DNA of 32,000 nucleotides from Geotalea uraniireducens Rf4 (GTDB taxonomy: Bacteria; Desulfobacterota; Desulfuromonadia; Geobacterales; Geobacteraceae), in the NCBI RefSeq assembly GCF_000016745.1, contig NC_009483.1, positions 4,350,001 through 4,382,000 of the forward strand. The letters run 5' to 3'. A model generated the notes under the pieces. The model worked only from the letters and a program-made list of their open reading frames with translations. It was not told where the DNA came from and searched no databases. This document shows, piece by piece, positions 4,605-25,748 of the stretch. A program made the translations under genes and the position numbers. Position 1 is the stretch's first letter, and the number at the start of each line of letters is the position of its first letter.

Positions 4605-5477
4605 TCAGGAGGGGTCAGCATCGGGGCCCCGGATCGGCTCAACGGCCTTACCCGCGTCGACTGCAGCAGCATTTCCGGTTGCAGGCGGCGCCTCCCGCTG
4701 CTCCGTCAAGGGGGCGGGGGATGCTGACCGGATGAATATGTCGATGGCAAGCGGGATCTTCGGGTCCGCCATATCGAGCGCCGCCGTTTCACCAGCTAAA
4801 AGTCCCAGGAGAGGGTCTGACTTGAACGCGCCAATGACGAAGCGCGCCGGAGCCGCCCCCTCGATACGATATTTCCCGTCAACATCGCTCGGGCCGCTCA
4901 GGTAGCGAACACGACCGATCACAGCACCGTCGCTCCCCGGCTCCAGGAGTTGGACAACCGCATTGGCAACAGGACGACCGGCACTGTCGCGAACCAATCC
5001 CGTTAGCGTAACAGGCATCGTTCGTCTGGCAGCAGGTGGTGGCAATTCAGTTACGGTCTGCGTTGCTGCCGCAAGCTGACTGGCGATTATTGCCGTTGCC
5101 TTCAATCTGTAGCTTAAACCATTGCGAACGATGATTTTTTGCGCTTGCGGACCGGTCAATGGCAAGCGGTGGGCCGGATCGGGCTGAGCGGCCCACGTAT
5201 GACCACCGATGCTGATGCCGGAGCCGATCACATATGTCCCCTCCGGCAACGACATGCTGAAGCTGCCATCAGGGGCACAGGAAGCGGCAAATAAAGGCGC
5301 AGCGTAAGGTGATGTGGGCGCTTTGTCGGCCTGGTAGGCGAACACGGCGCAACGCAACGGCTCCTGCTCCGGCGCAAGCTGCCCCGTGACGATACCGCCT
5401 GCATGTGCACAGCTTCCCGTGGCAATCAACCAGAAGGCGAAGAGCCGGGCAAACGAGGATTTCCATGTTGCGTCCAT
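4605..5477 (-). CDS. secreted protein with two carboxypeptidase-regulatory-like (CarboxypepD_reg, Ig-like beta-sandwich) domains and a low-complexity Pro/Ala tail
   Basis: The ORF track gives 4605..5501. I prefer the ATG at 5477 (MDATWKSSFARLFAFWLIATGSCAHAGG, a signal peptide) because GGAAAGGTGGG lies just upstream and it leaves a 14-nt gap after the upstream TGA. Domain motifs: CAPDGSFSMSLPEGTYVIG and VTLTGLVRDSAGRPVANAVVQL...DVDGKYRIEGAAPARFVIG. Confidence 0.75.
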   Translation of the reverse strand: MDATWKSSFARLFAFWLIATGSCAHAGGIVTGQLAPEQEPLRCAVFAYQADKAPTSPYAAPLFAASCAPDGSFSMSLPEGTYVIGSGISIGGHTWAAQPDPAHRLPLTGPQAQKIIVRNGLSYRLKATAIIASQLAAATQTVTELPPPAARRTMPVTLTGLVRDSAGRPVANAVVQLLEPGSDGAVIGRVRYLSGPSDVDGKYRIEGAAPARFVIGAFKSDPLLGLLAGETAALDMADPKIPLAIDIFIRSASPAPLTEQREAPPATGNAAAVDAGKAVEPIRGPDADPS

Positions 5478-5491: not shown

Positions 5492-8400
5492 TCACGGACA
5501 TGAGCTTTGACCGTTGACGTAGTCCGGCATGGTAATGGTCACCTCGTTGGACGGCGAGGTGATCCCCCCTATCAGCACGGTGTCGTCCAACTCGGTGACA
5601 AGAGTCATGGTTTCGCTCCTGGCAAGATATTGGGAGATCATGCCGTAGTAACCCGGCGCCGCCTGAAATTCGGTATTACTCTGGAACGGCTGCCAACCAT
5701 TCCCCGCGCTATTGGCGACCCAGGCGGTCACTGTTCGTCCGATCCTGGTGATCCGTAACCCACCGGACGTGTTATCGGCATTCGCCCCGTTACAGTAACC
5801 GGTCCCATCCAGCGCCCAGCAGATTTCGTATGCATTGGTCGTCGAGCCGTACCGTCCTATGTAGAAGTAGTTGCTTCGAGTGCCGTCTCCCGCAGTGGCC
5901 GGCATATTGAACTGGAGCCGGGCATAGACGTGGTACTGGTTCCCGGTCACCTCTCCGGCAGGAAGGCGCAACTTCGTGGAGAAATCGAAGTCGCCGAGGA
6001 GTGGCGTGACATCTGATAGAAACAGCCGCGCCGAATTCCAGCTGTTGGCAACGCCGTTTCCGCTCGACGATTCGCTCAAGGTGACCACCCCGTTCGCTGC
6101 AACTATGGAGGAATTGCCGTTCGATGTTGTAAAGTTGAGCGGGGGGGTTTGGGCATCGACCACCGTTAGATTGTTTGCATCCTTCATGGTCACACGTTGC
6201 GACCAGATGGCCGGATTGATCCCGGCCGAGAAATCATCGGCCAGGAGTTTGTAGGGGCGCACACGAAAGATGCCGCTCCCCCCCGCACCAAGCACCCCCG
6301 ACAGTGTGTAACTGTTGGTTCCGTAAGGAATTCTGGCAACGACTCCCCAATTATCTCCCTGCTTGAACTCCAACTGGTAACCGGTCGGAGCGGTGCCACT
6401 CCCGGGTGTGATAGCGAATTGCACCTTGTAAGGGCTCAAGGGTACAGCATTCAATACCGCAGGACCGTAAGGGCTGGTCCCGCCACAGTACTCTGGTCCC
6501 ATTGCCGCCTCACCGGAACTGTTAAAGGCGACTACCGAGTAACAGTACGTGGTGTTGGCAGTGAGGTTGGCAGAGTCGTCATAATCGAAGATTTTCGCCA
6601 CTGGAGACGTACAGGCGATGGTCGAAATATCCGAACCACAGAACCATTCTACGTATGGCACGTTAATGGTAGCTGCGAGATTCTGGTTGGATCCGCTACC
6701 GCCGTCTTTCCTGTAGATCTTATAGCCGGTAGCTCCCTTTACCAGGCGGATTCCTACAGTAATTTGGCTATCGGAACGGGTAATAAGTAACGGCACGCCC
6801 GCCGTGGCTGGAGTTGCAGTAGTGCTCACAGATACCGACGGGGTGGAGTCCCCTCCGGCGTTGACCGCCTTGACCCGATACCAGTAGGTCGTCCCGGCTA
6901 CAAGGCTGCTGTCCGAATAGCTCAACACGTTCTGATTGGTAACAAGTGTCCAGCTGGCATTGTCGGTGGAGCGCTCCAGTTTGTACGTCGTGGCACTGGC
7001 AGAAGGGCTCCAGGAGACGGTTGCCTGGGTGGCGGTAACGCCCGAAATGCCGGTGATCGTCGGGGCAGAGCTGAGCGTCCAGACGGTTTTGATGACCGCA
7101 TCGTTAGACTCGATAGTCTTGCCGACCGACTCCACTTTCACCTGGTACTGGGTGCCGGGGGTAAGACCGGTGATGGTGTAAGGTGGAGGGCTCCAGGAAT
7201 GGGGGGAGGACAACGGTCCGCTCCAAGCGCCGTCGGCCGCTTTTTTGTAGTAGATGTTGTAGCTGTAGGCCTGATCGATACGCCCCCAAGTGACGGTTAT
7301 GGATGAATCGGTGGATGTGGTCGAGACGATGGGTGGTGGTGTCGGCATGGTCTGGACGTAGCCGTCTGCCGGACTGACCGTTTGGGAATCGATGGTGGTC
7401 CCGTAGAAGCTCGTCCGCACGAAAGCCTTAATTCCCGGCCCACGACCGGCGGAATAGGTGTAGCTGCATGTCGCAGTTGCGCATGTCACGGTCGTCTGCA
7501 GCCCCCACCCCGCCCAATAGCCGGGATAGGTTTCCGGTGTGCCGCCAGAACTATACTGGTAGCCGCTCAGATAGACGTCGAAGTTCATCGACGTCGGGAA
7601 GTTCGTGTTGTCCCAGTCGAGTTTGATGGTCGTCGCGGTCGGTGTGGAAAGGGAGAGCGAAGGCTTGGCAGGCGGCGCCTGGGCAGTCTGGCAGAGCTCG
7701 TTTGACCACGCTTCGGCAGGTCCGCCTGCTGCGGTGTAGGCACGGATGCGGTAGCAGTACTGGGTACCGTCGGTCACGGCGGTATCGATCCAGTTCAGGG
7801 TGTTTGCCGCGAGCCCTGTCGCGACCGTTGTCCAGGCACCGGATGGCGGGCGCCGTTGAACGTCGAAGTTGTCTTCGTAGGTGTCGGTCCAGACCGGCCG
7901 GAGCTGGTTGGAGGCCGGGATGTCGATGTTGGAAAGAGTGACCACAAGGGGGGGGAAAACAACGATGCCGTTGCTGTCCACAGAGGTCGTGCCGCCGCTC
8001 TTCGTCCGGACCGAAACGTACCAGCCGCGGTAGTAGGGTGCCAGGACGCCGCCGCCCGTGCCTGAAACGGCATCGGCTGCCATGGTGGCAGAATAAATCG
8101 TACCCCAGCAATAGGTGGCCGGATTGGCGAGGATTGTAGCGATCGAAGCGCTTGCCGCGCAGCTCTTGCCGACCAGATCATACCCGGTATTGCCCGGCAC
8201 CTGGGTCCAGGTGGCAGTGAACGTTGTTGAGGTCAGGGCGGACGCGGACTGAAGAGTCGGCGGGACGAGCGGGGTGGTTACGGACTGCTCCGGTCCCGCG
8301 GCCGGGTTTTCGACCCCGTTATAGCGCGCGTAGACACGATAATAGTAGGTGGTGTTCGGGGTAAGCCCCGTGTCGCTGAAGCTGTAACTGCCCGGATAGC

Positions 8401-11400
8401 CTACAGTTGACCATGTGCCCGCTCCGGTTTTGCGCTCGACCCTGTACCCGTTGGCATCCCAGCTGATGCAATAAATCCACGACAGGTCGATCTGATTGGC
8501 GTTCGGTGCTCCGTAGCTCCACCAACCCGTGACCGGGTTCGGTGCGGTATAGGACGGCACGGAATCAGCCGACGGCAGAGACCAGCCGGCAGAGCTCTGC
8601 ACGGAAAGACGGTAGTAGTAGGTAGTCGCCCGCGCGAGGCCGGTATCGTCGTATGAAGTCGTATTCGCCGCCAGGGTGGCGACGGCCGCATACGTGCCGC
8701 CTGTTCCGGCCTTCCGCTCAAGCAGGTAGCCGGTATTGCCGGCAATGTTGGGCCAGGATATATTGAGCGAGCTCGTCGTTACAGGGTTCGGGTTGGTTGC
8801 AGCCGGCGCAGCCGGTTTCGCCAGGGTGGTGGTGGCGCAGAACTCGTTATAACGGGTAGTAACGGAGTTCAGATCCGCATAGACCCGCCAGCAGTAGGAG
8901 GTGTTGGGAGCCAGGCCGGTATCGACGAAAGAGGCGGCATCCATGGATAGCTTACCGTTGATCGTTCCCGGCGGGTCCACCCATGAACCGGACCCCTGGA
9001 TACTCCGCTTCAGGTATGGAGTGGTGCCCGCAGTCACGTTGGTCCAGGAGAGATCGACCCTGGACGAATCCGCCTCGGCGACAGCCAGCAATGCATTGGG
9101 CATGACGACCAGGTCATTGACGATCTTGAGGGCAAGGAAATTCCTGTCGCCGGCATCGGAGGTGGTGTAGCCGGCGACAAAACCCTCGCCGAACTTGTTG
9201 GCGGCGATCGTTGCGGCATGATCTTCCTTGCCCGCCGTTCCGTTGTAAAGGAATGACTTTACATAGTCGCCGGCGGAGGTGTAGATGGCGGCCACGACAT
9301 CGGTATTAGGGCTTGCGCCGGTATCCCCGGCAATGTAGATGTATCCTGATGGATCGAGGGAGAGACCAGTCAGGACCTCATCGGCGCCGGGACGGCTGAG
9401 TTCCCTTTCCCAGAGGAGGGTTCCCGCGGTATCGTAGCGAAGAAGCGCCAGGTCCCGGTCATTGGCGCCGCGATAGGCCTCACCGGCGACCACGATCTCA
9501 TTGTCGAAGCTGTCATAGGCGATCTTGCGGGCGGCCGAATTGCCTGCTGCCATCCCCGCCGGGTAGGTCCTGACCCAGCGGCGGTCGACTGCTCCGGTCG
9601 CCCCACCCAAATATTTGATGACCACCATGTTCGTAAAACCGGTCGGGACGTCGGTGACGTAGCCGGCCACGTAAACGTCGCCGGCAGCGTCGATGGCAAG
9701 CGACAGTGCCCGGTCATTGCCGCTGCCGCCGTAGGTGTCGCTCCAGAGGACAGCGCCGGTGACGCCGTCCAGCTTGGCGACAAACCAGTCGTTATTGCCG
9801 GCAAGGTCGACCCGGCCGGCGACAAACACACTTCCGGCTGCATCAAGGGAGACGGCTGCGGGATATTCATTGCCCCCCAGATGGCTTTGAGCCGTAAAAA
9901 CAACCGTGCCTGTTGCGGAGAGCTTTCTTACGTAAAAATCGATGTTCGAGAGGTCTGCATTGCCGTGACCGGTGACGGCAACGGCGTACGGCGCGCCCCC
10001 CTGAACGGCCACCGCATCGGCATGGTCTGAAAGCCGGCCGGCGCCGTTCAGCTGATCGGTCCACGCTGGAGTCGCCTCAAGCACTCCGTCGATGGTGGGT
10101 GAAAACGGGTACTTGTGGGTCCAGACCGAAGGTATGTTGCCCGCGCCGGGGACGCTCTGGCTGGAGGTGCCGGTCATGACGGCTTCAAGGTTCTGATCCA
10201 CGGCAATAGCCACTGCATCGTCATCTTCGTCGTACCCCCCGTCGCGGCGGTCCTGCCAAAGCACCTCGAAGGTGCCGCGCTTAAGCTTTACCGTATAGTA
10301 ATCTTTGGATGGATTGCCCATAAGGTTCTGGTCGGCATGAATAGTACCGGTGAAGACCACCGATCCCCCCGAGAAGCAGGCGGCATCAATAGCCTGATCA
10401 TCCCCTCCGGCCGGATCGGCGTAGACATAGGTAAGCGCCGGTGAGGCGAAGGTGGCGACCCTGGTGAGGGCGTTTGCCTCTCCGGAAAGGTCGCCGTTGC
10501 CGGAACCGTCGTAAGCCTTGACCCGGAAGTAGTAATCGGTGTCGGGGAGAAGCCCCGTCACGTCGAAGTTGACGACACCGGAGCCTGGCTGGTCGGGGGT
10601 CGGTATCGTGTAAGCGTCCTGGCTCCAGGCCCCGTTTTCGCCGATCTTTATGTCCACCTTGAAACCAGTCTCGGTTTCGGTGTTGTCGAGGAAGGAGAGC
10701 TGCACCGACGTATTGCTCAGCACCTGGGTGGCGAGGCCGGTCGGCGGGTCGAGCACCCCTTTGTCCTGGCGGAGCACCACGTAGTCGATGTCGTCCTGGT
10801 CGTAGAGATAGTAGAGATCGCCGCTCGCCACGACGTAGGGGAGCGCCTGGGATGCGGCGAGGGTAATGGTTGTGGCGTCGTTCCCCTGGATGCGACGAAA
10901 GATGTCCTTGTTCTGACTGCTGACCATGTATAGGGTGTAGCCCGCCCATTGGTCCGCGGTCCACGACTTATTCCCGTTCTGCAACGAGGTCTTGGACCCG
11001 CCTGTGGCGGCCTGCGTCCCCCCGTCGAGTGGCTGCGTCCGGTCAGTCCAGACAGCAGTCACCACCCCCTGCCCCGCGAGGCTGATCCCCACCGGGCGAG
11101 AGCTGTTGCCGATCACCCCGCTCCATTCCCTGTCCCAGAGGAGCCGCCCGTTCTTGCGGCTGAACTTCGCTGTTACGACCTTCTTCACCCCAACATAGTC
11201 GCGCCACCCTGCGACAAAGACTCCGCCCGCCGGATCGACCGCAAGCGCAGAGGCCCCGGATGCATTGATCGACCCGGCATCGTAGGTACTGCTCCAGACG
11301 GTGTCGGGGACTGCAGTCCCGTTCTTGTGGTATTTGACGACGAAAAGCTTTGAAAATGCCGGAAGGACCCCGGCCGTAGCAGCGACATAAACGTCTCCCG

Positions 11401-12352
11401 CCGGATCGACGGTCACAGCGGCCGGCTGATCGTCGAAGCCGGCATCGTAGACAGACTCCCAGACAGGTGTCGCGGAGCCCGGCACCAGTTCTGCGGTATA
11501 GAGATCATCCCCGCGGCCGTTGGTCAGGTAGCCTGCGACCACCACATTTCCTGCAGGCGTAAAGGCGAGCGCCGTGCCGCGATCGTTGTAGGAACCGGCG
11601 CCACTCTTGGGCCAGACACGAAGCTGGTTGCCGGCAGCGTCCCAGAGGAGAGTGACCAGATCCAGGTCGGTGCCGTTGGACGACTCGCCGGTCAAGGCTA
11701 TTCCGTTCCCGTCCGACGAAACAGCGACGGCGTAAGCGAGATCGGTCCCGCCGGCATCATAGGTCTTCGCCCAGAGCGGCGGATTGTCGCCTGTCACAGT
11801 GTTATCGAAGGCGAGCAGCAGACAGTCGTCATTGCTGCCGTTGTTTGAATAGCCGGCCACATAAACCCGGTCGTTGACCGGATCGTAGACCACCGCCTGG
11901 GGGATATCGGCTCTCCCGGCCGTGCCGGACCAGGTCCTGCTCCAGACCACCATTGGGGTATTTGTCCCGTTGTCGCGGTAGCGGACCACGTAAACGTCGT
12001 AGTTGCCGGCATTCATGACGCTCGCCGCAACGATCGCGTCGCCCGACTTGTCGATCGTCACCGCCACCCCTTGGTCACTGCCGCCTGCAATGTCATAAGC
12101 GGCCCGCCAGACAACCGAACCGTCGGCCGCGTACTTGACCGTGTAGACGTCGTCATTGCCGTCGCCAGCCAGGCTCTGGTAGCCGGTAACGACCGTTGAC
12201 CCGCTGGCCGGCACGATCGACGCAGCGCGCGCCTCCTGCTTTCCCTTGCGGGAGTCCATAAGCGGATGGCCTGTGAGGTCAGCGCCCCCGCCCGCCAGAA
12301 CCGGCGTAGCCAGGACAAGTAAGATGGCTATGGATGTAATGAGTCTTCTCAT
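5492..12352 (-). CDS. giant (2286-aa) secreted protein: SBBP-like beta-propeller block, FN3, second beta-propeller block, about 10 FN3-like domains, C-terminal concanavalin/LamG-like domain
   Basis: The ORF track gives 5492..12517. I trim the start to the ATG at 12352 (MRRLITSIAILLVLATPVLAGGGADL, a signal peptide, with GGAGAA 7 nt upstream). The longer form would overlap the upstream gene by 151 nt. Propeller blades repeat a pattern such as DPAGDVYVAG(Y)...(D)D..VVKY...G...W. FN3 domains carry T(T)YYYRV/TQYCYRIRAY-type F-strand motifs. Approximate layout in nt: propeller 1 at 10756-12270, FN3 at 10460-10755, propeller 2 at 9125-10455, FN3 array at 6250-9100, lectin-like domain at 5495-6250. 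Confidence 0.85.
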   Translation of the reverse strand: MRRLITSIAILLVLATPVLAGGGADLTGHPLMDSRKGKQEARAASIVPASGSTVVTGYQSLAGDGNDDVYTVKYAADGSVVWRAAYDIAGGSDQGVAVTIDKSGDAIVAASVMNAGNYDVYVVRYRDNGTNTPMVVWSRTWSGTAGRADIPQAVVYDPVNDRVYVAGYSNNGSNDDCLLLAFDNTVTGDNPPLWAKTYDAGGTDLAYAVAVSSDGNGIALTGESSNGTDLDLVTLLWDAAGNQLRVWPKSGAGSYNDRGTALAFTPAGNVVVAGYLTNGRGDDLYTAELVPGSATPVWESVYDAGFDDQPAAVTVDPAGDVYVAATAGVLPAFSKLFVVKYHKNGTAVPDTVWSSTYDAGSINASGASALAVDPAGGVFVAGWRDYVGVKKVVTAKFSRKNGRLLWDREWSGVIGNSSRPVGISLAGQGVVTAVWTDRTQPLDGGTQAATGGSKTSLQNGNKSWTADQWAGYTLYMVSSQNKDIFRRIQGNDATTITLAASQALPYVVASGDLYYLYDQDDIDYVVLRQDKGVLDPPTGLATQVLSNTSVQLSFLDNTETETGFKVDIKIGENGAWSQDAYTIPTPDQPGSGVVNFDVTGLLPDTDYYFRVKAYDGSGNGDLSGEANALTRVATFASPALTYVYADPAGGDDQAIDAACFSGGSVVFTGTIHADQNLMGNPSKDYYTVKLKRGTFEVLWQDRRDGGYDEDDDAVAIAVDQNLEAVMTGTSSQSVPGAGNIPSVWTHKYPFSPTIDGVLEATPAWTDQLNGAGRLSDHADAVAVQGGAPYAVAVTGHGNADLSNIDFYVRKLSATGTVVFTAQSHLGGNEYPAAVSLDAAGSVFVAGRVDLAGNNDWFVAKLDGVTGAVLWSDTYGGSGNDRALSLAIDAAGDVYVAGYVTDVPTGFTNMVVIKYLGGATGAVDRRWVRTYPAGMAAGNSAARKIAYDSFDNEIVVAGEAYRGANDRDLALLRYDTAGTLLWERELSRPGADEVLTGLSLDPSGYIYIAGDTGASPNTDVVAAIYTSAGDYVKSFLYNGTAGKEDHAATIAANKFGEGFVAGYTTSDAGDRNFLALKIVNDLVVMPNALLAVAEADSSRVDLSWTNVTAGTTPYLKRSIQGSGSWVDPPGTINGKLSMDAASFVDTGLAPNTSYCWRVYADLNSVTTRYNEFCATTTLAKPAAPAATNPNPVTTSSLNISWPNIAGNTGYLLERKAGTGGTYAAVATLAANTTSYDDTGLARATTYYYRLSVQSSAGWSLPSADSVPSYTAPNPVTGWWSYGAPNANQIDLSWIYCISWDANGYRVERKTGAGTWSTVGYPGSYSFSDTGLTPNTTYYYRVYARYNGVENPAAGPEQSVTTPLVPPTLQSASALTSTTFTATWTQVPGNTGYDLVGKSCAASASIATILANPATYCWGTIYSATMAADAVSGTGGGVLAPYYRGWYVSVRTKSGGTTSVDSNGIVVFPPLVVTLSNIDIPASNQLRPVWTDTYEDNFDVQRRPPSGAWTTVATGLAANTLNWIDTAVTDGTQYCYRIRAYTAAGGPAEAWSNELCQTAQAPPAKPSLSLSTPTATTIKLDWDNTNFPTSMNFDVYLSGYQYSSGGTPETYPGYWAGWGLQTTVTCATATCSYTYSAGRGPGIKAFVRTSFYGTTIDSQTVSPADGYVQTMPTPPPIVSTTSTDSSITVTWGRIDQAYSYNIYYKKAADGAWSGPLSSPHSWSPPPYTITGLTPGTQYQVKVESVGKTIESNDAVIKTVWTLSSAPTITGISGVTATQATVSWSPSASATTYKLERSTDNASWTLVTNQNVLSYSDSSLVAGTTYWYRVKAVNAGGDSTPSVSVSTTATPATAGVPLLITRSDSQITVGIRLVKGATGYKIYRKDGGSGSNQNLAATINVPYVEWFCGSDISTIACTSPVAKIFDYDDSANLTANTTYCYSVVAFNSSGEAAMGPEYCGGTSPYGPAVLNAVPLSPYKVQFAITPGSGTAPTGYQLEFKQGDNWGVVARIPYGTNSYTLSGVLGAGGSGIFRVRPYKLLADDFSAGINPAIWSQRVTMKDANNLTVVDAQTPPLNFTTSNGNSSIVAANGVVTLSESSSGNGVANSWNSARLFLSDVTPLLGDFDFSTKLRLPAGEVTGNQYHVYARLQFNMPATAGDGTRSNYFYIGRYGSTTNAYEICWALDGTGYCNGANADNTSGGLRITRIGRTVTAWVANSAGNGWQPFQSNTEFQAAPGYYGMISQYLARSETMTLVTELDDTVLIGGITSPSNEVTITMPDYVNGQSSCP

Positions 12353-12366
12353 GTCTCTTTTCTCCG

Positions 12367-15300
12367 TCACTCGCTGTAGCTGCGCGGCGGCGCAAGGCTC
12401 GGCCACGGGGTCACGTTGTTCCACATGTTCTCTTGCGGCCACTGGTTGGGAATCGCCGGCTGGATGCCATTCACGTACGTCGGCGAAATGGTGATGTCGG
12501 CGCGCCGCAGATGACACTGGGTGTATGCCTCGTACTTGTATCGGTCAGCCATATAGGCCGGATCGCTGGTGAAGATTTTGCTGTTGATGATCCCGCCGAT
12601 CGGGTAGCCCCAATGGCCGCCAGTCCAGTCGGCGCGGCTCCCGGAAAGGATGTCGGCCGCAGAAACCTTGCCGCCGGAGGCGACCCGCCCCCGGTGCTGG
12701 TAGTCGAGACAGTTGGTCACCATGAGCCGCGGCAGGGCAGATGAGTGGGGCTGGTGACACTTTGAACAGGTAAACGAGTGTTCCGTATTCGCCCCCCAAC
12801 CCTTGACCGATTCGTGCATCCGGTCGCGCGATTTCCAGTCGGTGTTCTTGTTCACCCCGTCGGTCAGCTTCCGCTGCTGGTGACAGCGCAGACACAAGCC
12901 GGCAAACTGCTTGTCGCTTTCCGCGATCCGGTTCGTGTTGAAGGTGTTCCGGTCCGTGTTCCAGCCGAGCAGCACGGGTACGGTCGGCTTTCGGTTGTCC
13001 CAGCCAAGCTGCGTTGATCCAGCCCCGGCGCCGAAGTATCCGCCCCATCGGTAGGGGGGGGAGGCGATACCGCCGTTGGCGCTGGGTGGAGGTGCATCTT
13101 CCTTGTAGGGGTTGGTCATCCAACTTCCCTTGAGGAGCGGCACGGCATAAGGCATCTGTTCGCCAAGGGTCGGAGATACCCCGTGCGGGTCATGGCATGG
13201 CGTGCAGAGTCCGTTGATCCGCTCGTGACTCGAGTAGTTGAGCATGCTCGAAGCGGAGAAGTGGGTCCCGGCGACCGTTGTCTTGCGGAACGGGAAACGG
13301 GTGTAACGCCCTTTGGTCCCCCCGCCGAAGCGCGGGCTGTCGTCGTACCCCATGACCGCCTGGCTGGCGCTGTAGGTCGACTGGTATCCCCACGGCCTGG
13401 TCGACGAGGCGTTCTGGTTCTCGTGACAGTCGAAGCACTGGCCGGCGCCTGCAGCGTACAGGTTCTTGCCGGAAACGTTCCCCTGGGCCATATAGGTGGC
13501 GCCGTATCCACCCTTGCCGTTCTGGGTTTCCTTGAGGTTGGCGCCGTTACGCGTATTATTGAATGTCACATAGCTGGAGGTGGTGCCGTTGACTTTCGAG
13601 CCATGGGAATTGTGGCAGTCGTAGCACTGGATGTTTCCCCCCGCGCCCCTCGTGTTCGGCGGCGCTGCGTCGTAACCGTCGGCAGCGTTCCACCCCCCCT
13701 GGTTGGCGGCTGCGTTGCCGTGTGCCGAGAACGCCTTGACGACAGTGTCCTTTTTGTTGGCATTGGGATAGGTACCGGAATTCACCTTCCCCCAGGTGGT
13801 CGTTCCCATCTGGGCGTAGCGGGCAGCGATCGACTGGCCGTCCCAGGCATACTGACGCGGGGTCTTGCAATCACCGAACGGGGTCGTGTCGTTGTTCTGA
13901 TCGGAGTGACAGGAGAGGCAGTGGTTGGTCAGTTTCGCCACTTCTGTCCGCTCGTTCGCCGTGGTGACCCGGTTGGCGAGAAACTGGACCGCCGAAGTGC
14001 TGCTGTAGAAAGTCGGTCTTTCTCCCGGCCGCCAGACCACCAGGTCGACCTTGGCGTCTTTTACCCCCGAGTAGGTCCTGAAATCGAATCCCTCGTGACG
14101 GTTCGTGTCGATCGTTCCGAACGAGGTCGCTTCCCAGTGGCAGGCGTAACACTGCCGCCCGGTAAGCGCCACACCAGGGTTCTGGACGTGGTGCGAGTTG
14201 CTGTTGAACTGCCCGACCACGTCGGCCCTAGCACCAATGGAGCCGGCGTGACACTTGACGCAGATGACCGGCAGACCGAAGGCCACGTGCTTGGGCACCG
14301 GCTTGGCGTTGGTGTGGCAGGTGTTGCAACTCTGAGAGTCGGCATGGGCATCGGCAAAACGGTGCATGTGACAGCTGGTGCATATCTTGGTCGCGTTGTG
14401 GCCGTCGCTGAAGTTGCTCAGATAATGCTTGGAATCCGGGCCGTGACAGACATTGCAGATCTTGTTGGAGGCACCTGCATAGTCGCTACCCTTTGTCTTC
14501 TGGGTGAAGGAGACGGCCGCCCGCGCCTGGGGTACGCCGTATTTCCCGTCCGTAGTGGTCGCCACCTGGCTCTGAATCATATAGATGTTGTCGTCGCCGT
14601 GGGGGTCATGACAGTCCCAGCAGAATTTCCCCCCCTTCCACGTCCCCAGAAACTTGCCGTTTGCATCCTTCGCCCACCCTCCCGAGTTGATGAAGGCACC
14701 GTAATGCTTCTTGCCGAAGTGGGCGGCCGAGGCCCGCGCCTTTTTCGGCTTGATGAAGCCCGTGCCTGGGTCGAAGCCAAGGGAATATTTACCGGGGTTG
14801 TCCGACGGCGCCGTGTGGCAGAAGATGCACTGTCCGCCGGAGTCGTCGTCGTGGCACTGCAGACAAACGCCCATCATGACGTACTGGCTCTTGATGTCGG
14901 CCTTATGGGTGGTATTCCAGCTACCGGCACCTGTTGAGTGCCCCTTATGCCCCCCCGATGGCGCGAAAACCCCGTCATCCGAGTCATGGCAGCCGGACGT
15001 GGTGCAGGAATCGAGATAACCGTGGCTGGTCCAGTCGGTCCGGGTACCGCCGGAGCGCAGTTTCACAACGATCCCGCCTATAGTCGCCTGGGGCGCCAGG
15101 CTCTCAAGTTGCCCCACATGACATTGTATGCACTCATAGTCCTTATGCTCCATATGGCAGTATACGCATTCTTTCTCGAAGCGCTGCTCGTACTGCGTGT
15201 GCCTCTTGAGCCGGAACGGATTCGACCCCTCTCCATGGATAACCGTATTGTCGTGACAGTACCAGCAGGGATTGCTCGGGAAGTTGGCGGCCGGGTTGTT

Positions 15301-17442
15301 CGACCCCGGATAACGCCCGGCCGTCGAATAGCGGCCATGGCCGGTAGACACCCACTGACCGAGGTTGATCCTCGCCATGGTCCCGTTGTCGAAACCGGCA
15401 AAGGTGTCCAGGTCAGGCCCGGCAGTGCCGTGACAATTGAGACAGATAATGCTCGAATTGACCGACGCCCCCCACTGGGGATCAGTGGCGCCGGTATGAC
15501 AGCGGGTGTTGGAGCAGGTCTTGTTGGTCGGGCGGTACGAGCCGCCGGCGTTGAATATGACGTCCCGCGTTTTGTTCACGTGGTAGGCGGGATTGATGTG
15601 AGCCGTTTCCCCCATGTTCCCGGTCGGCAGTCCCCCGGCGTGACAGGTTTTGCAGTCGCCGTTGATAACAGTTGCTGCATGGCAGTTGCCGCAGGTGAAC
15701 GAGGTGCCGGTATGGCGCGGATGAGAGTTGGCGCGTGGCTCCCCTGCACCCTCGTTATGGAAGATCGGCATCGCCGCCCGCCATTCGGTGCCGGTGGACC
15801 AGCTGGTGAAGACCGGCCAGAACTTGCCGTCGTGGCTGGCGCCGTCATGGCAGCCGTTCGCGTTGCACGTTCCGGTAATCGGGTGACCGTGACAGGCGTT
15901 GCAGCGCGACCATCCCTTATTGGGCCAGCTCGGCTGCTTCACTTCCGCATCGAGCGGGTTCACTGTGCCGTCCGAGTGGCAATAGACGTTGCTGCAGCTA
16001 CGGGTGGCCGGGTCGTAGGATGGTGCAGGGCGACCGGCAATGTTCCACTGGGGATCGACCGCCACCTGCTTGGTCCCGTCGGCATGTATGGTCAGGGCCT
16101 TGATGGCGCCGGCCGCAGTCACCGTCTGATAATGGCAGTAACTGCACGGATACTTCCTGATCCATTGGGGTCCGACATGTTTGGCATGTGCGTTGGTGGA
16201 GATGTTCACGAACGGTGTGCAGACACCGTTATCTCCGTTCCAGGCGCCACCGATCTCGGTGCAATTGTCATAGGTCGAATCGACCGTCAACCCTCGATGG
16301 CAGTAAAAGCATTTGTAGGGACCCTGATCGCTCCAGGACGGCGTCTTGAAGCCCGGACGGCCAAGGGCGTTCGAATGGCAGTAGGTGCTCGTGCACTGTT
16401 TTGAGCCTGCGGTGTAGCTGCCGCCATCCTTAAAGGAGACATCCTTCTCCCCATTGACATGCTTTTGACGGTCTGTGATCATCGCTGAACCGGTGGCGGT
16501 CGAGTTGTGGCACTTGTCGCAGACGTATTGGTAATCCTTGGCGTGCCTGTCATGGCGGGGACTCATGGTCACGGTATCGCTGTTCCCGCCGTGGCAACCG
16601 GTACAATCGAGCGACCCGCCCCAGGTCGGAGCGGCAAAGGTGTTCACCCGGCCGGCAGGGTTACCGTTCGAATGGCAGTAAATATTGTTGCAGCCGCCTG
16701 TTCGTCCCGTGCTTTGCGACGGCAGGTAAATGGGATAATCCACATTGCCGGAGTACGAGCCGCCGCTGTTGGGGGAGGTCAGAAACTGCACGGCCAGCGC
16801 TCGGCGGCCTGCGCTGGTGGCGTGGGAAAATGAGGTGTGCACGGGATGGCATTTGCCGCAGCTGTTCTCGTCTACGCGGTAATAGTCGCCATGTTTTTTA
16901 CCCGACCCGCTCTGGGAGGGATGGCTTCCGTCGTCAGGCGGCAAACCGTGGCAGGCATTGCAACCGGACGGAGCTTCTAGTAGCTGGTTTCCCCATTCCG
17001 GAGTGCTCTTTTCAAAGTGACAATTGACATTGGCACAGCTGCCGAGGGTCGGATTAGGCGTTTGGGGAAAAGGGGTGGTCCAGTTGCCAAATGATGAGGT
17101 GCGGTTTTTATATACCGCATTAACGGGGGAATTATTGATATTGCTGGAAAGCTTGATCAGTCCGTCACGATGGGAGGAGTTGTAGCTTTCGCTTCCCGGA
17201 TGGCAAATGGCGCAGTTTGCCGGCCCGGCATACGCAGGGAGGTGGGTGCGGTGCTTTCCCTGGAAGCCGCCGGTCGTAATATTCCGGTAACTATCTTCCA
17301 GCGGCCGGAAATCGGCGGTTTTCTTACTCCCGTGGCAATCGTAACAGGAAATCGACGCCTCCGCCACGCTACCCATAACCGTCATCGCCAGCAGCAACAT
17401 CAGTATGCGGTTACATATCCGCCTCAGCTTATTGTCGATCAT
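12367..17442 (-). CDS. giant (1691-aa) secreted multiheme c-type cytochrome, about 36 heme-binding motifs
   Basis: Signal peptide MIDNKLRRICNRILMLLLAMTVMGSVAEA. By hand I count 29 CXXCH motifs and 7 CX4CH motifs (CANVNCH, CNNIYCH, CTSTYCH, CSNVYCH, CNANGCH, CSNTRCH, CTTSGCH). The CX4CH...CXXCH pairing matches the Geobacter CxxxxCH...CXXCH domain family (TIGR01904) as I recall it. The TGA at 12367-12369 lies 14 nt before the next ATG. Confidence 0.9.
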   Translation of the reverse strand: MIDNKLRRICNRILMLLLAMTVMGSVAEASISCYDCHGSKKTADFRPLEDSYRNITTGGFQGKHRTHLPAYAGPANCAICHPGSESYNSSHRDGLIKLSSNINNSPVNAVYKNRTSSFGNWTTPFPQTPNPTLGSCANVNCHFEKSTPEWGNQLLEAPSGCNACHGLPPDDGSHPSQSGSGKKHGDYYRVDENSCGKCHPVHTSFSHATSAGRRALAVQFLTSPNSGGSYSGNVDYPIYLPSQSTGRTGGCNNIYCHSNGNPAGRVNTFAAPTWGGSLDCTGCHGGNSDTVTMSPRHDRHAKDYQYVCDKCHNSTATGSAMITDRQKHVNGEKDVSFKDGGSYTAGSKQCTSTYCHSNALGRPGFKTPSWSDQGPYKCFYCHRGLTVDSTYDNCTEIGGAWNGDNGVCTPFVNISTNAHAKHVGPQWIRKYPCSYCHYQTVTAAGAIKALTIHADGTKQVAVDPQWNIAGRPAPSYDPATRSCSNVYCHSDGTVNPLDAEVKQPSWPNKGWSRCNACHGHPITGTCNANGCHDGASHDGKFWPVFTSWSTGTEWRAAMPIFHNEGAGEPRANSHPRHTGTSFTCGNCHAATVINGDCKTCHAGGLPTGNMGETAHINPAYHVNKTRDVIFNAGGSYRPTNKTCSNTRCHTGATDPQWGASVNSSIICLNCHGTAGPDLDTFAGFDNGTMARINLGQWVSTGHGRYSTAGRYPGSNNPAANFPSNPCWYCHDNTVIHGEGSNPFRLKRHTQYEQRFEKECVYCHMEHKDYECIQCHVGQLESLAPQATIGGIVVKLRSGGTRTDWTSHGYLDSCTTSGCHDSDDGVFAPSGGHKGHSTGAGSWNTTHKADIKSQYVMMGVCLQCHDDDSGGQCIFCHTAPSDNPGKYSLGFDPGTGFIKPKKARASAAHFGKKHYGAFINSGGWAKDANGKFLGTWKGGKFCWDCHDPHGDDNIYMIQSQVATTTDGKYGVPQARAAVSFTQKTKGSDYAGASNKICNVCHGPDSKHYLSNFSDGHNATKICTSCHMHRFADAHADSQSCNTCHTNAKPVPKHVAFGLPVICVKCHAGSIGARADVVGQFNSNSHHVQNPGVALTGRQCYACHWEATSFGTIDTNRHEGFDFRTYSGVKDAKVDLVVWRPGERPTFYSSTSAVQFLANRVTTANERTEVAKLTNHCLSCHSDQNNDTTPFGDCKTPRQYAWDGQSIAARYAQMGTTTWGKVNSGTYPNANKKDTVVKAFSAHGNAAANQGGWNAADGYDAAPPNTRGAGGNIQCYDCHNSHGSKVNGTTSSYVTFNNTRNGANLKETQNGKGGYGATYMAQGNVSGKNLYAAGAGQCFDCHENQNASSTRPWGYQSTYSASQAVMGYDDSPRFGGGTKGRYTRFPFRKTTVAGTHFSASSMLNYSSHERINGLCTPCHDPHGVSPTLGEQMPYAVPLLKGSWMTNPYKEDAPPPSANGGIASPPYRWGGYFGAGAGSTQLGWDNRKPTVPVLLGWNTDRNTFNTNRIAESDKQFAGLCLRCHQQRKLTDGVNKNTDWKSRDRMHESVKGWGANTEHSFTCSKCHQPHSSALPRLMVTNCLDYQHRGRVASGGKVSAADILSGSRADWTGGHWGYPIGGIINSKIFTSDPAYMADRYKYEAYTQCHLRRADITISPTYVNGIQPAIPNQWPQENMWNNVTPWPSLAPPRSYSE

Positions 17443-17796
17443 GCGCCCCCCACTATAAGCCTCTCTGCCCGGACCATTTACGGTTCTGCAAATGTCGTCA
17501 GATATAGGCCCACAAATATATATAAAATTTAATATTATTTATAACTAATTAACAAATATCACGATGTTACAGTTTTCATTAAACATAAATATTTAGGTTT
17601 TTGCCCTGAAAATGGCATCCACAAACGCGGCATAAAGCAGGATTTAGCGGAGTCAATTTCCCTGTGCGTGAAATAACCGCCTGGAAATGCGTGCATCGTT
17701 TACATATCGCAGTCTTACACGGTAATAGATGCAATATTAAAACCATTTATGAAGTTAGTTGGACGGGTCACCGAAGAGAGCCGGCGTTTGGGGGGA
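17443..17796 (-). promoter_or_regulatory. 354-nt non-coding region upstream of the cytochrome gene with an extremely AT-rich core, presumed promoter/regulatory region
   Basis: No credible ORF. In 17521-17600 I count 12 G/C out of 80 nt, set in an otherwise GC-rich locus. I found no convincing terminator after the tsaB stop at 17797. I could not assign specific -35/-10 elements. Confidence 0.4.
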
Positions 17797-18483
17797 TTAC
17801 CGAGATGCGAGCTTTGCCAGTTCCGCCTCAGATGGTCTGATATAGGCGGGATTGAGGTCGGCAAGAGGTATTGTTTCCCCTTTGGCCAAGGCCTCTGCCG
17901 CAAGCAGAGCGCCGGCGGAGGCTCTCGGCTGGTTGAGACTCCATGGGGCAAACAGCGCCTTGTCTCCCAGGGACGCTGTGATAAGGTCGCGGTACTTTAC
18001 CGCCCCTTCGCCGATGAATATGGTAGGGTCGTTTATTTTATACAGCAATTCGCTCGGCGGGAGTACGGCATCCTTGTCAAGCGGCTCGGGAAGGGTGCGG
18101 CAGGAATAAAGCCCCGCATAAACCTCTTTTTTTCTCGCATCGAACATGGCACATACCGGGCAGGAGCTCCAGGGGAGATTCATAGCCAGCATAGCCAGGG
18201 AAGAAAAACCGGCCACCGGCTTGGCGGCAGCCAACGCCAGCCCCTTGACGGTCGCAACGCCGACCCTGACGCCGGTAAACGAGCCGGGCCCAAGTGCGAC
18301 GCCTAAGGCGTCCAGATCGGCCACAGTCAACCCTGCGTCGGTCAGGAGCATATCCACGCAGGACAGCAGGCGATTGGTGAGCGTTCTGTCCAGATCGACA
18401 AGATACTCACCGGCTAACCGTTCGCCCAGGGTCAGAGCGACGCTGCAGGTATTGGTGGAGGTGTCGATGGTGAGGAGTTTCAA
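17797..18483 (-). CDS. tsaB: tRNA threonylcarbamoyladenosine biosynthesis protein TsaB (YeaZ)
   Basis: 228-aa ORF starting (TTG) MKLLTIDTSTNTCSVALTLG...LGPGSFTGVRVGVATVKGLA, a typical TsaB N-terminal domain. Confidence 0.85.
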   Translation of the reverse strand: MKLLTIDTSTNTCSVALTLGERLAGEYLVDLDRTLTNRLLSCVDMLLTDAGLTVADLDALGVALGPGSFTGVRVGVATVKGLALAAAKPVAGFSSLAMLAMNLPWSSCPVCAMFDARKKEVYAGLYSCRTLPEPLDKDAVLPPSELLYKINDPTIFIGEGAVKYRDLITASLGDKALFAPWSLNQPRASAGALLAAEALAKGETIPLADLNPAYIRPSEAELAKLASR

Positions 18484-18499
18484 GGGATCATCTCTTTTT

Positions 18500-24041: not shown

Positions 24042-24692
24042 TTACACGCCGGCAGCGGCTGCGACTTCTGCCGCAAAGTCGCTCTCTTTTTTGGCCAATC
24101 CCTCGCCGAGGGTAAACTTGGCAAAACGGCGGATGCTGATGTTCTCGCCGATAGCGGCGATAGTTTCATTCAGGTAGGTCTGCACCGTCTTATCAGAATC
24201 CTTGACAAAGGGTTGTTCAAGGAGGCAGATATCGGCATAAAACTTGTTAACCTGCCCTTCGATAATTTTTTCCACAATGTTGTCCGGCTTGCCGCTTTCC
24301 TTGGCTTTTGCCCGGTAGATTGCTTTCTCCCGCTCAAGCACGTCAGGATCAACCTCTTCGCGACGTACATAAAGAGGCGAGGCCGCTGCGATATGCATGG
24401 CGATATCCTTGACAAAGGCCTGGAAATTTTCATTCTTGGCGACGAAGTCGGTCTCGCAGTTTACCTCGACCAGAACGCCGATCTTTCCGCCCGCGTGGAT
24501 ATAAGAGCCGACCAGACCTTCGGTTGCAACCCGGCCGGACTTCTTGGAAGCGGCAGCCAGACCTTTCTTGCGCAGATAGTCGACAGCCTGCTCATGGTCG
24601 CCACCGGTTTCCGTCAGAGCCTTCTTGCAGTCCATGAGGCCTGCGCCGGTAGCCTTTCTCAGTTCATTTACTTGCGCTGCTGTTATGCTCAC
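24042..24692 (-). CDS. tsf: elongation factor Ts (short form)
   Basis: The ORF track gives 24042..24707. I prefer the GTG at 24692, which gives [26 protein letters not shown] (a canonical EF-Ts N-terminus) with GGAGGA 5 nt upstream. Confidence 0.92.
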
Positions 24693-24803
24693 GTTTATCC
24701 TCCACAAAACGACCGACCCTTGCGGCCGTCTTTTTGTATTTTTATTACCCTTCCCAGGTGCTCCATCGTTACGGCTGACCGAAAACGGCTCCGCCGGAAG
24801 TCA

Positions 24804-25707: not shown

Positions 25708-25748
25708 GGCAATTTTACCCTCAGCCGACCGTCTCACCTTCACTGCCC

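What the first reader, a model, noticed from the sequence alone, without database searches (positions are those of the whole stretch)
5492..12352. 2286-aa giant: two beta-propeller blocks, a long FN3 stalk with a recurrent disulfide pattern, a terminal lectin-like domain, and no recognisable anchor
Directly seen: about 6-7 and then about 8 repeats of the pattern D(P)AG.VYVAGY....(D)D..V.KY...G..LW. These are split by one FN3 (LDPPTGLATQVLSNTSVQLSF...TDYYFRVKAYDGSG). About 10 further FN3-like units follow. Many carry a conserved Cys pair, Y-C-[WY]-R... then a Cys 15-20 residues later, for example TSYCWRVYADLNSVTTRYNEFC, TQYCYRIRAYTAAGGPAEAWSNELC and TTYCYSVVAFNSSGEAAMGPEYC. This suggests one stabilising disulfide per domain and hence an oxidising extracytoplasmic location. 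The last ~250 residues (LLADDFSAGINPAIWSQR...LRITRIGRTVTAWVANSAGNGWQPF) resemble a concanavalin/LamG jelly-roll. There is no LPXTG, PEP-CTERM, T9SS CTD, autotransporter beta-barrel or lipobox, so how it is exported beyond the inner membrane and retained is unexplained.
Basis: partly seen in the sequence, partly recalled or inferred. Interest (0 to 1): 0.65.

Follow-up and report, generated by a model that had tools for sequence, protein, structure and literature searches.

The report
Giant stalk protein paired with cytochrome
The 2286-residue propeller/FN3/lectin-fold protein is real, and it is the conserved operon partner of a 36-haem Geobacter-type cytochrome; a short C-terminal tail, not previously recognised, carries a cysteine that co-varies with a lone cysteine in the cytochrome, which suggests that the cytochrome itself is the missing anchor.

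Summary
A minus-strand gene (12352..5492) encodes a Sec-signal protein with two 8-bladed SBBP-type beta-propellers, 11 FN3 domains and a C-terminal concanavalin-like jelly roll. It is under purifying selection (dN/dS 0.16-0.19). The gene is the second in a tight three-gene operon, 14 nt after a 1691-aa cytochrome with 29 CXXCH and 7 CXXXXCH motifs, and just before a CarboxypepD_reg protein. The cytochrome-giant pair recurs in dozens of unrelated genomic contexts, including Geotalea toluenoxydans, Geotalea daltonii FRC-32 and Geobacter metallireducens GS-15.

All relatives of the giant share a tail of the form ...T-T-P-x-[YFW]-x6-C-[PQN], which no Pfam or NCBIfam model recognises. The tail Cys tracks an orphan Cys in the cytochrome motif PFGD-C-KTPRQYAWD:
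- 24 distinct pairs are C/C.
- 5 pairs lack both cysteines.
- Cytochromes with G/S at that site (8 loci with enough downstream sequence) have no giant.
- There are no exceptions.

The best explanation is that the tail docks on the cytochrome and is locked by a disulfide. The roughly 430 residues just before the tail (two FN3 domains plus the jelly roll) are swapped as a cassette between 96%-identical strains, which suggests variable binding specificity. All of this is computational. The disulfide, the location and the ligand are inferred.

The parts
12367..17442 (-). Partner gene: a 1691-aa multihaem c-type cytochrome with a Sec signal peptide. It has 29 CXXCH and 7 CXXXXCH motifs and a possible long-loop C1578...C1643-H site. 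An orphan conserved Cys1192 sits in PFGD-C-KTPRQYAWD. The C-terminus carries WNNVTPW.
   Evidence: Translation; motif count; TIGR01904 2e-41 and PF09698; non-haem Cys conservation.
13867..13869 (-). Codon of cytochrome Cys1192. It is the only conserved non-haem Cys without an intramolecular partner, and it co-varies with the giant's tail Cys.
5492..12352 (-). The giant gene (2286 aa plus stop).
   Evidence: orthologues at 56-91% identity over the full length; dN/dS 0.16-0.19.
12287..12352 (-). Signal peptide (residues 1-22, MRRLITSIAILLVLATPVLAGG); there is no lipobox.
   Evidence: Read directly from the sequence; conserved in P0001-P0003.
10748..12208 (-). Beta-propeller 1 (residues 49-535). 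It has eight SBBP-type blades, and blade 8 is interrupted by a ~75-aa small beta module (about 446-497, motif WTADQWAGYTLYM).
   Evidence: Repeat HMM; AlphaFold2 pLDDT 87.3; Foldseek match to CylK at 1.8e-15; the insert module recurs in tandem in P0013-P0016.
10463..10747 (-). FN3-1 (residues 536-630), between the two propellers.
9113..10393 (-). Beta-propeller 2 (residues 654-1080), eight blades.
   Evidence: Repeat HMM; NCBIfam LipL53 SBBP model and delta-60 repeat hits at 880-1065.
6248..9100 (-). FN3 stalk, units 2-11 (residues 1085-2035), with six conserved Cys pairs.
5567..6247 (-). Concanavalin-like jelly-roll domain (residues 2036-2262). It is a rare family, with 20 cluster representatives among 1.84 billion proteins.
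5550..6844 (-). Strain-variable cassette (residues ~1837-2267: FN3-10, FN3-11 and the jelly roll). It has no DNA similarity to L092, although the flanks are 96% and 89% identical.
5495..5557 (-). Conserved C-terminal tail SPSNEVTITMPDYVNGQSSCP (residues 2266-2286). The motif is [ST]-x-P-x-[YFW]-x6-C-[PQN] and Cys2285 is the penultimate residue. The tail is disordered in the isolated model (pLDDT 53-61).
   Evidence: no Pfam or NCBIfam hit.
4605..5477 (-). Third operon gene: a secreted protein of about 290 aa with a CarboxypepD_reg (transthyretin-like) domain. The likely start is the ATG at 5477, after an AAGGTGG. The longer ORF from 5501 overlaps the giant's stop.
   Evidence: Positional equivalents lie directly after the giant in L001, L003, L011, L091 and L092. 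A separate cluster of CarboxypepD_reg proteins follows the giant in L005, L010, L017, L072, L080 and L082.
17443..17796 (-). AT-rich leader between tsaB and the cytochrome. It holds one sigma-70-like match (17562-17534) and no Rfam hit.

Best explanation
The giant is the non-haem partner subunit of a two-protein (often three-gene) module built around a ~36-haem CxxxxCH/CxxCH-family cytochrome of Geobacterales.

**Shown**
- The genes are co-oriented with 14-nt junctions and Shine-Dalgarno sequences.
- The cytochrome-giant pair is conserved in many unrelated chromosomal contexts.
- Both proteins have Sec signal peptides.
- Every relative of the giant ends in, or in one case (L033) contains, the motif T-T-P-x-[YFW]-x6-C.
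- The motif's Cys is present exactly when the cytochrome has Cys at PFGD-C-KTPRQYAWD.

**Inferred**
- After Sec export and periplasmic oxidation, the otherwise disordered tail docks on the cytochrome next to that loop and is locked by an intermolecular disulfide. The cytochrome is then the giant's 'anchor', or the giant is the cytochrome's tether.
- The assembly is exported beyond the outer membrane, most plausibly by the type II pathway that Geobacter uses for other folded, FN3-containing surface proteins.
- The ~40-nm FN3 stalk and the two propellers act as spacer and attachment elements.
- The strain-swappable jelly roll next to the tail gives variable binding specificity (mineral surface, matrix polysaccharide or partner cell). 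This would hold the haem wire against its target or within the matrix.
For: **Operon anatomy:**

**Pairing in different contexts**
- Geobacter sp. OR-1, DSM 9736 and five metagenome contexts.
- Most of the 78 metagenome loci.
- Geotalea toluenoxydans, Geotalea daltonii FRC-32 and G. metallireducens GS-15.

**Tail motif**
- It is present in relatives of only 31-34% identity, whether the last domain is FN3 or the jelly roll.
- Cys2285 is invariant in 9/9 aligned sequences and has no conserved intramolecular partner.

**Cytochrome Cys1192**
- It is the only conserved orphan Cys.

**Co-variation**
- Among 29 distinct pairs, 24 are C/C and 5 have F or Y in the cytochrome and G/A/E/N in the tail. 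A naive Fisher test gives p about 8e-6.
- By locus, 27 are C/C, 5 are non-C/non-C, 8 giant-less cytochromes carry G/S, and none is discordant.
- The NJ tree suggests 3-4 independent co-transitions.
- In L033 the motif is internal, TTAYSEGDDTC, so that locus is not an exception.

**Other support**
- The tail is disordered in the isolated domain model, as expected for a docking peptide.
- The cassette swap lies immediately next to the retained tail.
- The gene is under purifying selection.
- A published survey predicts the ~35-haem class of Desulfuromonadia cytochromes to be extracellular (PMC11492766).
Against: - There is no experimental or structural evidence for the complex.
- The confirmed double loss of both cysteines is concentrated in one clade, so there may be only 1-2 independent events of that kind. 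The other co-transitions are 'giant absent and Cys absent'.
- The Cys-less clade keeps the rest of the tail, so the disulfide is dispensable for whatever the tail does.
- Neither protein has a membrane anchor, so cell attachment and the export route remain unexplained.
- No secretion-system gene is conserved near the cassette. Only the OR-1 locus has GspA/GspB-like and MshE-like neighbours.
- A periplasmic location is not excluded.
- The jelly-roll match is at fold level only (9-16% identity).
Confidence: 0.6

Rival explanations
1. The giant is a free-standing surface or matrix adhesin that is merely co-expressed with the cytochrome. The tail would be a new C-terminal sorting or attachment signal read by unidentified machinery (for example lipidation or linkage of the Cys to an envelope component). 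The cytochrome Cys would serve the same machinery independently.
For: - The tail is strictly C-terminal in nearly all members, like known sorting signals.
- The architecture resembles giant adhesins, with propellers, a long Ig-like stalk and a variable binding domain.
- The rest of the tail persists in the Cys-less clade.
Against: - There is no transmembrane segment or basic cluster after the motif, unlike the sortase, exosortase and rhombosortase signals.
- No candidate processing enzyme is conserved nearby.
- In L033 the motif is internal and followed by another domain.
- The one-to-one match of the cytochrome Cys with the tail Cys, and with the presence of a giant, is most simply explained by direct contact.
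Confidence: 0.15
2. The giant is a periplasmic or outer-membrane-associated assembly or export factor for the huge cytochrome. The propellers and stalk would act as a chaperone or scaffold, and the disulfide would be a transient folding intermediate.
For: - The two genes are strictly adjacent and likely translationally coupled.
- No anchor or secretion signal is present.
- The cytochrome is more conserved (54-75% identity) than the giant (31-59%).
Against: - A 235-kDa protein with 11 FN3 domains and an extended length of over 50 nm is larger than the periplasm is wide. This is an inference from domain sizes, and PMC11492766 makes the same point for long cytochromes.
- Strain-level swapping of a binding-type domain fits environmental ligand recognition better than chaperoning.
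- Related cytochromes with G at the site exist without any giant, so the giant is not needed for maturation of the cytochrome fold.
Confidence: 0.12
3. The C-terminal jelly roll is an enzyme (a PL7- or GH16-like polysaccharide lyase or hydrolase), and the giant is a matrix-remodelling protein.
For: The top Foldseek hits are alginate lyases and GH16 or pseudo-glucanases.
Against: - Identity is 9-16% and TM is only 0.5-0.56.
- There is no Pfam or NCBIfam catalytic family hit.
- Lectins and CBMs match equally well.
- Within the family the domain is highly divergent (25-33% identity between types), and only a few structural residues are invariant.
Confidence: 0.05

Closest known systems
SBBP-repeat beta-propeller proteins (Pfam PF06739; NCBIfam NF047494, Leptospira LipL53 family; CylK propeller, PDB 7fh6/7roo)
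   Same: Repeats of about 52 residues with D-x-x-G-x-[VI]-[YF]-[VI]-[AT]-G ... D-x-x-[VL]-x-K-[YF] ... G-x-x-x-W. The predicted fold is a multi-bladed propeller, and CylK is the best structural match.
   Different: There are two 8-bladed propellers in one chain, and one blade is split by an inserted module. The protein is not a lipoprotein. It is fused to an FN3 stalk and operon-paired with a cytochrome. The function of SBBP domains is generally unknown.
Geobacter CxxxxCH/CxxCH-domain c-type cytochromes (TIGR01904 / PF09698), e.g. 'cytochrome c, 37 heme-binding sites' of Geotalea daltonii FRC-32
   Same: The upstream partner gene is a clear member (2e-41). These are the ~35-37-haem proteins noted as the largest cytochromes in Geobacter genomes (PMC2996986) and predicted to be extracellular (PMC11492766).
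   Different: None of the papers I could search describes a dedicated non-haem partner, the orphan Cys or the tail motif. No family member has a solved structure.
Giant repetitive adhesins of Gram-negative bacteria (LapA, MpIBP and SiiE type)
   Same: The overall logic is the same: a long stalk of Ig-like repeats that spaces ligand-binding modules, with a variable binding region.
   Different: Those adhesins use type I secretion and have a C-terminal RTX-type signal, no Sec signal peptide and essentially no Cys, and they are retained by an N-terminal plug. This protein has a Sec signal peptide, conserved disulfide pairs, no RTX repeats and a Cys-bearing tail. (The properties of those adhesins are from general knowledge.)
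Accessory or anchoring arrangements for extracellular cytochromes (MtrC on MtrAB in Shewanella; matrix-anchored OmcZ and mineral-binding PgcA in Geobacter)
   Same: The concept is the same: a surface multihaem cytochrome is positioned by a non-haem partner or matrix.
   Different: Those systems use porin docking, lipid anchors or polysaccharide entrapment. A predicted covalent disulfide tether to a 235-kDa propeller/FN3 protein has no described counterpart that I could find.
Concanavalin A-like lectin/glucanase superfamily (legume lectins, GH16, PL7, phage J-1 Dit CBM2)
   Same: The predicted two-sheet jelly-roll fold (pLDDT 90; Foldseek probability 1.0).
   Different: No sequence-level membership; the family has only 20 cluster representatives; the ligand is unknown; it is swapped as a cassette between strains.

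Membership tests
SBBP beta-propeller repeat (PF06739) | Match to the family HMM at or above the gathering score | tested here: inconclusive
   The whole protein scores 20.0 bits against a cut-off of 20.5. The precomputed Pfam list for orthologues includes PF06739. NCBIfam's SBBP LipL53 model hits at 2.9e-20, but only in part and far below its equivalog cut-off.
SBBP beta-propeller repeat (PF06739) | Tandem ~50-residue repeats that fold into a closed propeller | tested here: met
   16 repeats in two blocks. AlphaFold2 gives an 8-blade model at pLDDT 87. The best PDB match is CylK, E 1.8e-15.
Fibronectin type III (PF00041) | HMM match above the gathering score, in tandem ~90-residue units | tested here: met
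   fn3 scores 120.6 bits against a cut-off of 25. An in-protein HMM finds 11 units. PDB sequence hits are to titin and fibronectin.
Concanavalin A-like lectin/glucanase fold | Two-sheet jelly-roll beta-sandwich | tested here: met
   AlphaFold2 pLDDT 90.1 with 17 strands. Foldseek gives 189 PDB matches at E <= 1e-3, all of this superfamily among those listed.
Concanavalin A-like lectin/glucanase fold | Carbohydrate binding or catalytic residues | not tested
   No sequence family match. Identity to structural hits is 9-16%. No residue-level comparison was possible without coordinates.
Sortase / exosortase / rhombosortase-type C-terminal sorting signals (LPXTG, PEP-CTERM, GlyGly-CTERM, MYXO-CTERM) | A short motif followed by a hydrophobic helix and basic residues at the C-terminus | tested here: not met
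   The protein ends ...MPDYVNGQSSCP with no hydrophobic segment. NCBIfam finds nothing in the tails at E <= 10.
T9SS C-terminal domain / autotransporter beta-barrel / lipoprotein | A CTD of about 80 aa, a C-terminal beta-barrel domain, or a lipobox Cys after the signal peptide | tested here: not met
   No such Pfam or NCBIfam hits. The signal peptide ends VLAGGG, without a Cys.
Type I-secreted RTX-type giant adhesins | No Sec signal peptide, RTX nonapeptide repeats near the C-terminus, few or no Cys | tested here: not met
   A Sec signal peptide is present, there are 18 Cys including 7 conserved pairs, and there is no RTX or HemolysinCabind hit.
CxxxxCH/CxxCH-domain cytochrome (TIGR01904), tested on the partner gene and not the giant | Repeated CX4CH...CXXCH domain | tested here: met
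   TIGR01904 scores 139.6 bits against a cut-off of 27, in 5 stretches. There are 29 CXXCH and 7 CX4CH motifs.
Proposed cytochrome-giant cassette (defined here) | The giant lies directly downstream of the cytochrome; the tail has [YFW]-x6-C; the cytochrome has Cys in PFGD-C-[KR]TP..YAWD | tested here: met
   Window: 14-nt gap, tail ...DYVNGQSSCP, and cytochrome PFGDCKTPRQYAWD.

The most novel reading that the evidence does not exclude
A widespread but undescribed class of extracellular electron-transfer device in Geobacterales and some Nitrospirota and Desulfobacterota. In it, a ~36-haem 'wire' cytochrome is covalently disulfide-linked, through a dedicated 12-residue C-terminal docking tail, to a >50-nm propeller/FN3 stalk. 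The cytochrome-proximal lectin-fold module of that stalk is exchanged between strains to retarget the wire to different solid surfaces or partners. The tail and Cys-loop pair would be a new, portable protein-protein ligation motif for tethering cargo to multihaem cytochromes.
Probability: 0.35. Interest if true: 0.85.

Novelty: new variant of a known kind. Interest (0 to 1): 0.68.

Why it matters
How Geobacter positions its largest cytochromes outside the cell is an open problem, as is why genomes carry so many variable ones. This cassette gives a specific hypothesis that can be tested genetically: two named cysteines and a 12-residue tail. It is present in cultured, tractable strains (G. metallireducens GS-15, Geotalea daltonii FRC-32 and Geotalea toluenoxydans). 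If the hypothesis is right, it explains what retains a 235-kDa protein with no known anchor. It links the strain-level diversity of a binding domain to electron-acceptor specificity. It also offers a natural tag for attaching proteins to a haem wire, which is of interest for bioelectronics. If it is wrong, the gene is still a well-defined member of a conserved two-gene family that genome annotation currently labels only 'fibronectin type III domain-containing protein' or 'titin'.

Tried and rejected
- **Protein search with the C-terminal domain alone**: it returned nothing, although close orthologues exist. This was probably an artefact of the word index or the stop codon. The exhaustive representative search replaced it.
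- **Riboswitch or other RNA in the window and in the AT-rich leader:** no Rfam hits at gathering scores, or at E <= 1 in the leader. GEMM-type regulation, common for Geobacter surface genes, is therefore not supported here.
- **Conserved secretion, porin or processing genes near the cassette:** clustering of 611 neighbouring ORFs from all loci found only CarboxypepD_reg proteins recurring. The GspA/GspB-like and MshE-like genes next to the OR-1 locus are not conserved elsewhere.
- **Third-gene product as the disulfide partner:** rejected, because that gene is absent from the OR-1, DSM 9736 and G. daltonii loci.
- **Pseudogene or chance ORF:** rejected on dN/dS 0.16-0.19 and full-length orthologues.
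- **Internal terminators or promoters within the operon:** none above chance.
- **Literature:** seven full-text searches and four papers examined gave no description of the pairing, the tail or the orphan Cys.
Full report
**1. What is at the coordinates**

The ORF list shows a minus-strand frame at 5492..12517. The ATG at 12352 is the likely start. It is preceded by GGAG 10-13 nt upstream and lies 14 nt after the stop of the upstream gene. Close orthologues begin with the same MRRLITSIAI.

The product is 2286 aa and rich in Ala, Thr, Gly and Ser. It has 18 Cys and a Sec-type signal peptide without a lipobox. Comparison with an 85%-identical orthologue (L001, a Geobacter sp. MAG) and a 99%-identical one (L011) gives dN/dS of 0.155 and 0.19. 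Every domain block is below 0.3. It is therefore a functional gene.

**2. Domain anatomy**

An HMM built from the protein's own repeats finds two blocks of blades:
- seven clear blades at 49-415, plus an eighth whose halves lie at 416-445 and 498-532;
- eight blades at 654-1080.

AlphaFold2 on residues 23-535, using 15 family sequences, gives pLDDT 87.3 and 8 x 4 strands. A small beta module of about 75 aa is inserted into blade 8. The best PDB match is the propeller-containing enzyme CylK, at E 1.8e-15.

Pfam's SBBP model is marginal on the whole protein (20.0 vs 20.5 bits). NCBIfam's SBBP LipL53 and delta-60 models hit at 2.9e-20 and 9e-15.

Eleven FN3 units are found: 536-630 and ten between 1085 and 2035. 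Pfam fn3 scores 3e-35, and the PDB sequence hits are titin and fibronectin.

The last 251 residues match no sequence family. They model confidently (pLDDT 90.1) as a beta-sandwich whose PDB neighbours are PL7 alginate lyases, GH16 and pseudo-glucanases, legume lectins and a phage CBM. These matches have TM 0.5-0.56 and 9-16% identity. An exhaustive search of 1.84 billion representatives finds only 20 clusters with this domain, nearly all in giant proteins.

The Cys claim is overstated:
- Three FN3 units carry the Y-C-[WY]...C pair.
- Three further pairs sit elsewhere.
- All six pairs are invariant in the seven orthologues of 56-91% identity, whereas the lone Cys177 and Cys1295 are not.

**3.

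Upstream, 14 nt away and on the same strand, is a 1691-aa cytochrome with a signal peptide. It has 29 CXXCH and 7 CXXXXCH motifs and is a clear TIGR01904/PF09698 member.

Downstream, after another ~14-nt gap that contains AAGGTGG, is a ~290-aa secreted CarboxypepD_reg protein.

The three genes form an insertion between housekeeping blocks: rpsB-tsf-pyrH-frr-uppS-cdsA-dxr-rseP-tsaB on one side and ilvD-ilvB-ilvN on the other. Geotalea toluenoxydans has the same arrangement, and its cytochrome is 75% identical. The window therefore comes from a Geotalea-like Geobacterales genome.

**4. The pairing is a conserved cassette**

A large PF09698 cytochrome sits immediately upstream of a relative of the giant in many settings:
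- Geobacter sp. OR-1, Geobacter sp. DSM 9736 and five metagenome contigs, in seven different neighbourhoods;
- Geotalea daltonii FRC-32 and G. metallireducens GS-15;
- most of the 78 loci recovered with the cytochrome's C-terminal region from metagenomes.

The cytochromes are 54-75% identical. The giants are only 31-59% identical and range from about 2000 to more than 3300 aa.

A CarboxypepD_reg protein of about 260-300 aa often follows the giant. Such proteins also accompany related cytochromes that have no giant. No porin, secretion or processing gene is conserved nearby.

**5. A conserved tail**

Aligning orthologues showed that the penultimate residue, Cys2285, is invariant. This holds even in P0010 (34% identity) and in proteins whose C-terminal domain is a different type.

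Inspection of all relatives shows a shared ending...S-x-[YF]-S-N-x-x-x-x-T-T-P-x-[YFW]-x6-C-[PQN], with 0-5 further residues. The ending is the same whether the preceding domain is FN3 or the jelly roll. No transmembrane segment follows it. Pfam and NCBIfam models do not recognise it. In the isolated domain model it is disordered, with pLDDT 53-61.

**6. Co-variation with the cytochrome**

Apart from haem-motif cysteines, the cytochrome has the following:
- a conserved pair, 394/408;
- a conserved C1578...C1643-H arrangement, possibly a long-loop haem site;
- one orphan conserved Cys, Cys1192, in PFGD-C-KTPRQYAWD.

Across loci the residue at this position predicts the partner's state:
- Cys in the cytochrome goes with a giant whose tail has Cys (24 of 29 distinct pairs; 27 loci; also G. 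daltonii and Geotalea toluenoxydans).
- Phe or Tyr goes with a giant whose tail ends GDNV-[G/A/E/N]-P, without Cys (L009, L071, L077, L078, L079).
- Gly or Ser goes with no giant downstream where enough sequence is available (8 loci). The three loci with Thr, Ala or a second Ser lack enough downstream sequence to tell.

One apparent exception was L033, whose giant lacks the terminal tail. It carries the motif internally (TTAYSEGDDTC), followed by an extra LamG-like domain. There are no discordant loci.

A naive Fisher test on the 29 pairs gives about 8e-6. On an NJ tree of the cytochrome segment, the F/Y sequences form one clade plus one separate branch, and the giant-less sequences form two clades. 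I therefore count about 3-4 independent co-transitions. Both cysteines lack a conserved intramolecular partner. The simplest reading is that they meet, most likely as an intermolecular disulfide, and that the tail is a docking peptide.

**7. A swappable module next to the tail**

Protein P0003 (locus L092, a groundwater metagenome with the same synteny) is 92-100% identical to the window protein through FN3-9. Identity then drops to 49%, 26% and 31% in FN3-10, FN3-11 and the jelly roll. The last 21 residues are identical again.

At the DNA level:
- Window 19000-6845 aligns at 96.0%.
- Window 6844-5550 has no blastn match.
- Window 5549-4560 aligns at 89%.
- ilvD and ilvB align at 97%.

At least four jelly-roll types, 25-33% identical to one another, occur among otherwise close orthologues. 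This pattern is typical of modules that recognise variable external ligands.

**8. Mechanism**

*Shown:* the operon structure, the conserved pairing, Sec signal peptides on all three proteins, conserved disulfide-type Cys pairs, the folds, the tail, the co-variation and the cassette swap.

*Inferred:*
- tail docking and an intermolecular disulfide;
- an extracellular location. The extended length exceeds 50 nm on standard domain dimensions, and a published survey predicts the ~35-haem class to be extracellular and notes that such proteins exceed the width of the periplasm (PMC11492766);
- export by type II secretion (general knowledge of Geobacter; not tested here);
- a role for the jelly roll and propellers in binding mineral, matrix or partner surfaces.

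I put about 0.8 on a physical cytochrome-giant complex and about 0.6 on the full statement including the disulfide.

**9. Comparison with what is known**

The giant belongs to the broad kind 'SBBP/FN3 repetitive surface protein', and the partner belongs to the TIGR01904 cytochromes. I found no description of the dedicated pairing, the tail motif or the orphan Cys, and no solved structure for the cytochrome family.

The giant resembles giant adhesins in overall logic, but it fails their defining features: type I secretion, RTX repeats, and the absence of a signal peptide and of Cys. It also fails all known C-terminal sorting-signal definitions.

**10. Verdict**

The gene is best described as the tethered partner of a giant cytochrome. 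It is a new variant of known extracellular electron-transfer hardware, supported by strong comparative evidence but no experimental evidence.

Noticed in passing
window 10856-11017 (giant residues ~446-497); also L009, L071, L072 and L077-L082 cytochromes: The ~75-aa module inserted in propeller blade 8 (GGSKTSLQNGNKSWTADQWAGYTLYM...) has no Pfam match. It occurs in tandem copies in relatives P0013-P0016. A similar '...K.W...QW.N.YL' module is inserted in the partner cytochromes of some lineages.
   Followed up: partly
window 12367-12420 (cytochrome C-terminus): Cytochromes of this family, with or without a giant partner, end in a conserved W-N-x-[VK]-T-P-W motif at or within ~12 residues of the C-terminus. 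Its function is unknown.
   Followed up: partly
window 12511-12711 (cytochrome residues 1578-1644): Conserved N-C-L-D...H-R-G...G-F-P-x-G...C-H, with 40-64 residues between the two Cys. This may be an unusually long-loop haem-binding site, which would bring the count to 37, as in the 'cytochrome c, 37 heme-binding sites' annotation of Geotalea daltonii.
   Followed up: no
window 4605-5477 (-) and the equivalent genes in L005, L010, L017, L072, L080, L082, L042 and L064: Secreted CarboxypepD_reg (transthyretin-like) proteins of ~260-300 aa recur next to this cytochrome family. In L005, L010, L017 and L082 they lie next to a ~660-710-aa protein, which in L005 and L010 has NosD/beta-helix Pfam hits. 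They occur whether or not a giant is present, so they may be a third component of the system.
   Followed up: partly
L002 (Geobacter sp. OR-1) 17100-18913 and 24071-26002: Only in OR-1 is the cassette flanked by GspB-like (T2SSB, weak), GspA/ExeA-like (AAA + PG_binding_1) and MshE/T2SSE ATPase genes, with MacAB-like genes upstream. This hints at an export route but is not conserved elsewhere.
   Followed up: partly
L033 1-4791 and 11484-20996; L031: Some loci carry two giants flanking one cytochrome. The upstream giant ends in the canonical tail. The downstream one has the motif internally, followed by a LamG-like domain.
   Followed up: partly
giant residues 1273-1360 (FN3-4), window 8273-8536: Orthologue P0002 is about 75-96% identical in the other domains but only 48% identical in FN3-4. 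This suggests a second, smaller mosaic patch.
   Followed up: no
window 12353-12517: The mechanical ORF extends 55 codons upstream from a GTG and overlaps the end of the cytochrome gene. At least one database orthologue (P0007) is annotated with such an extended N-terminus, probably a start-site error.
   Followed up: yes
window 28058-29023 (+): A 321-aa protein with an IPT/TIG domain, next to lptF/lptG and followed by a 203-aa ORF with no family. It is unrelated to the finding and was not examined.
   Followed up: no
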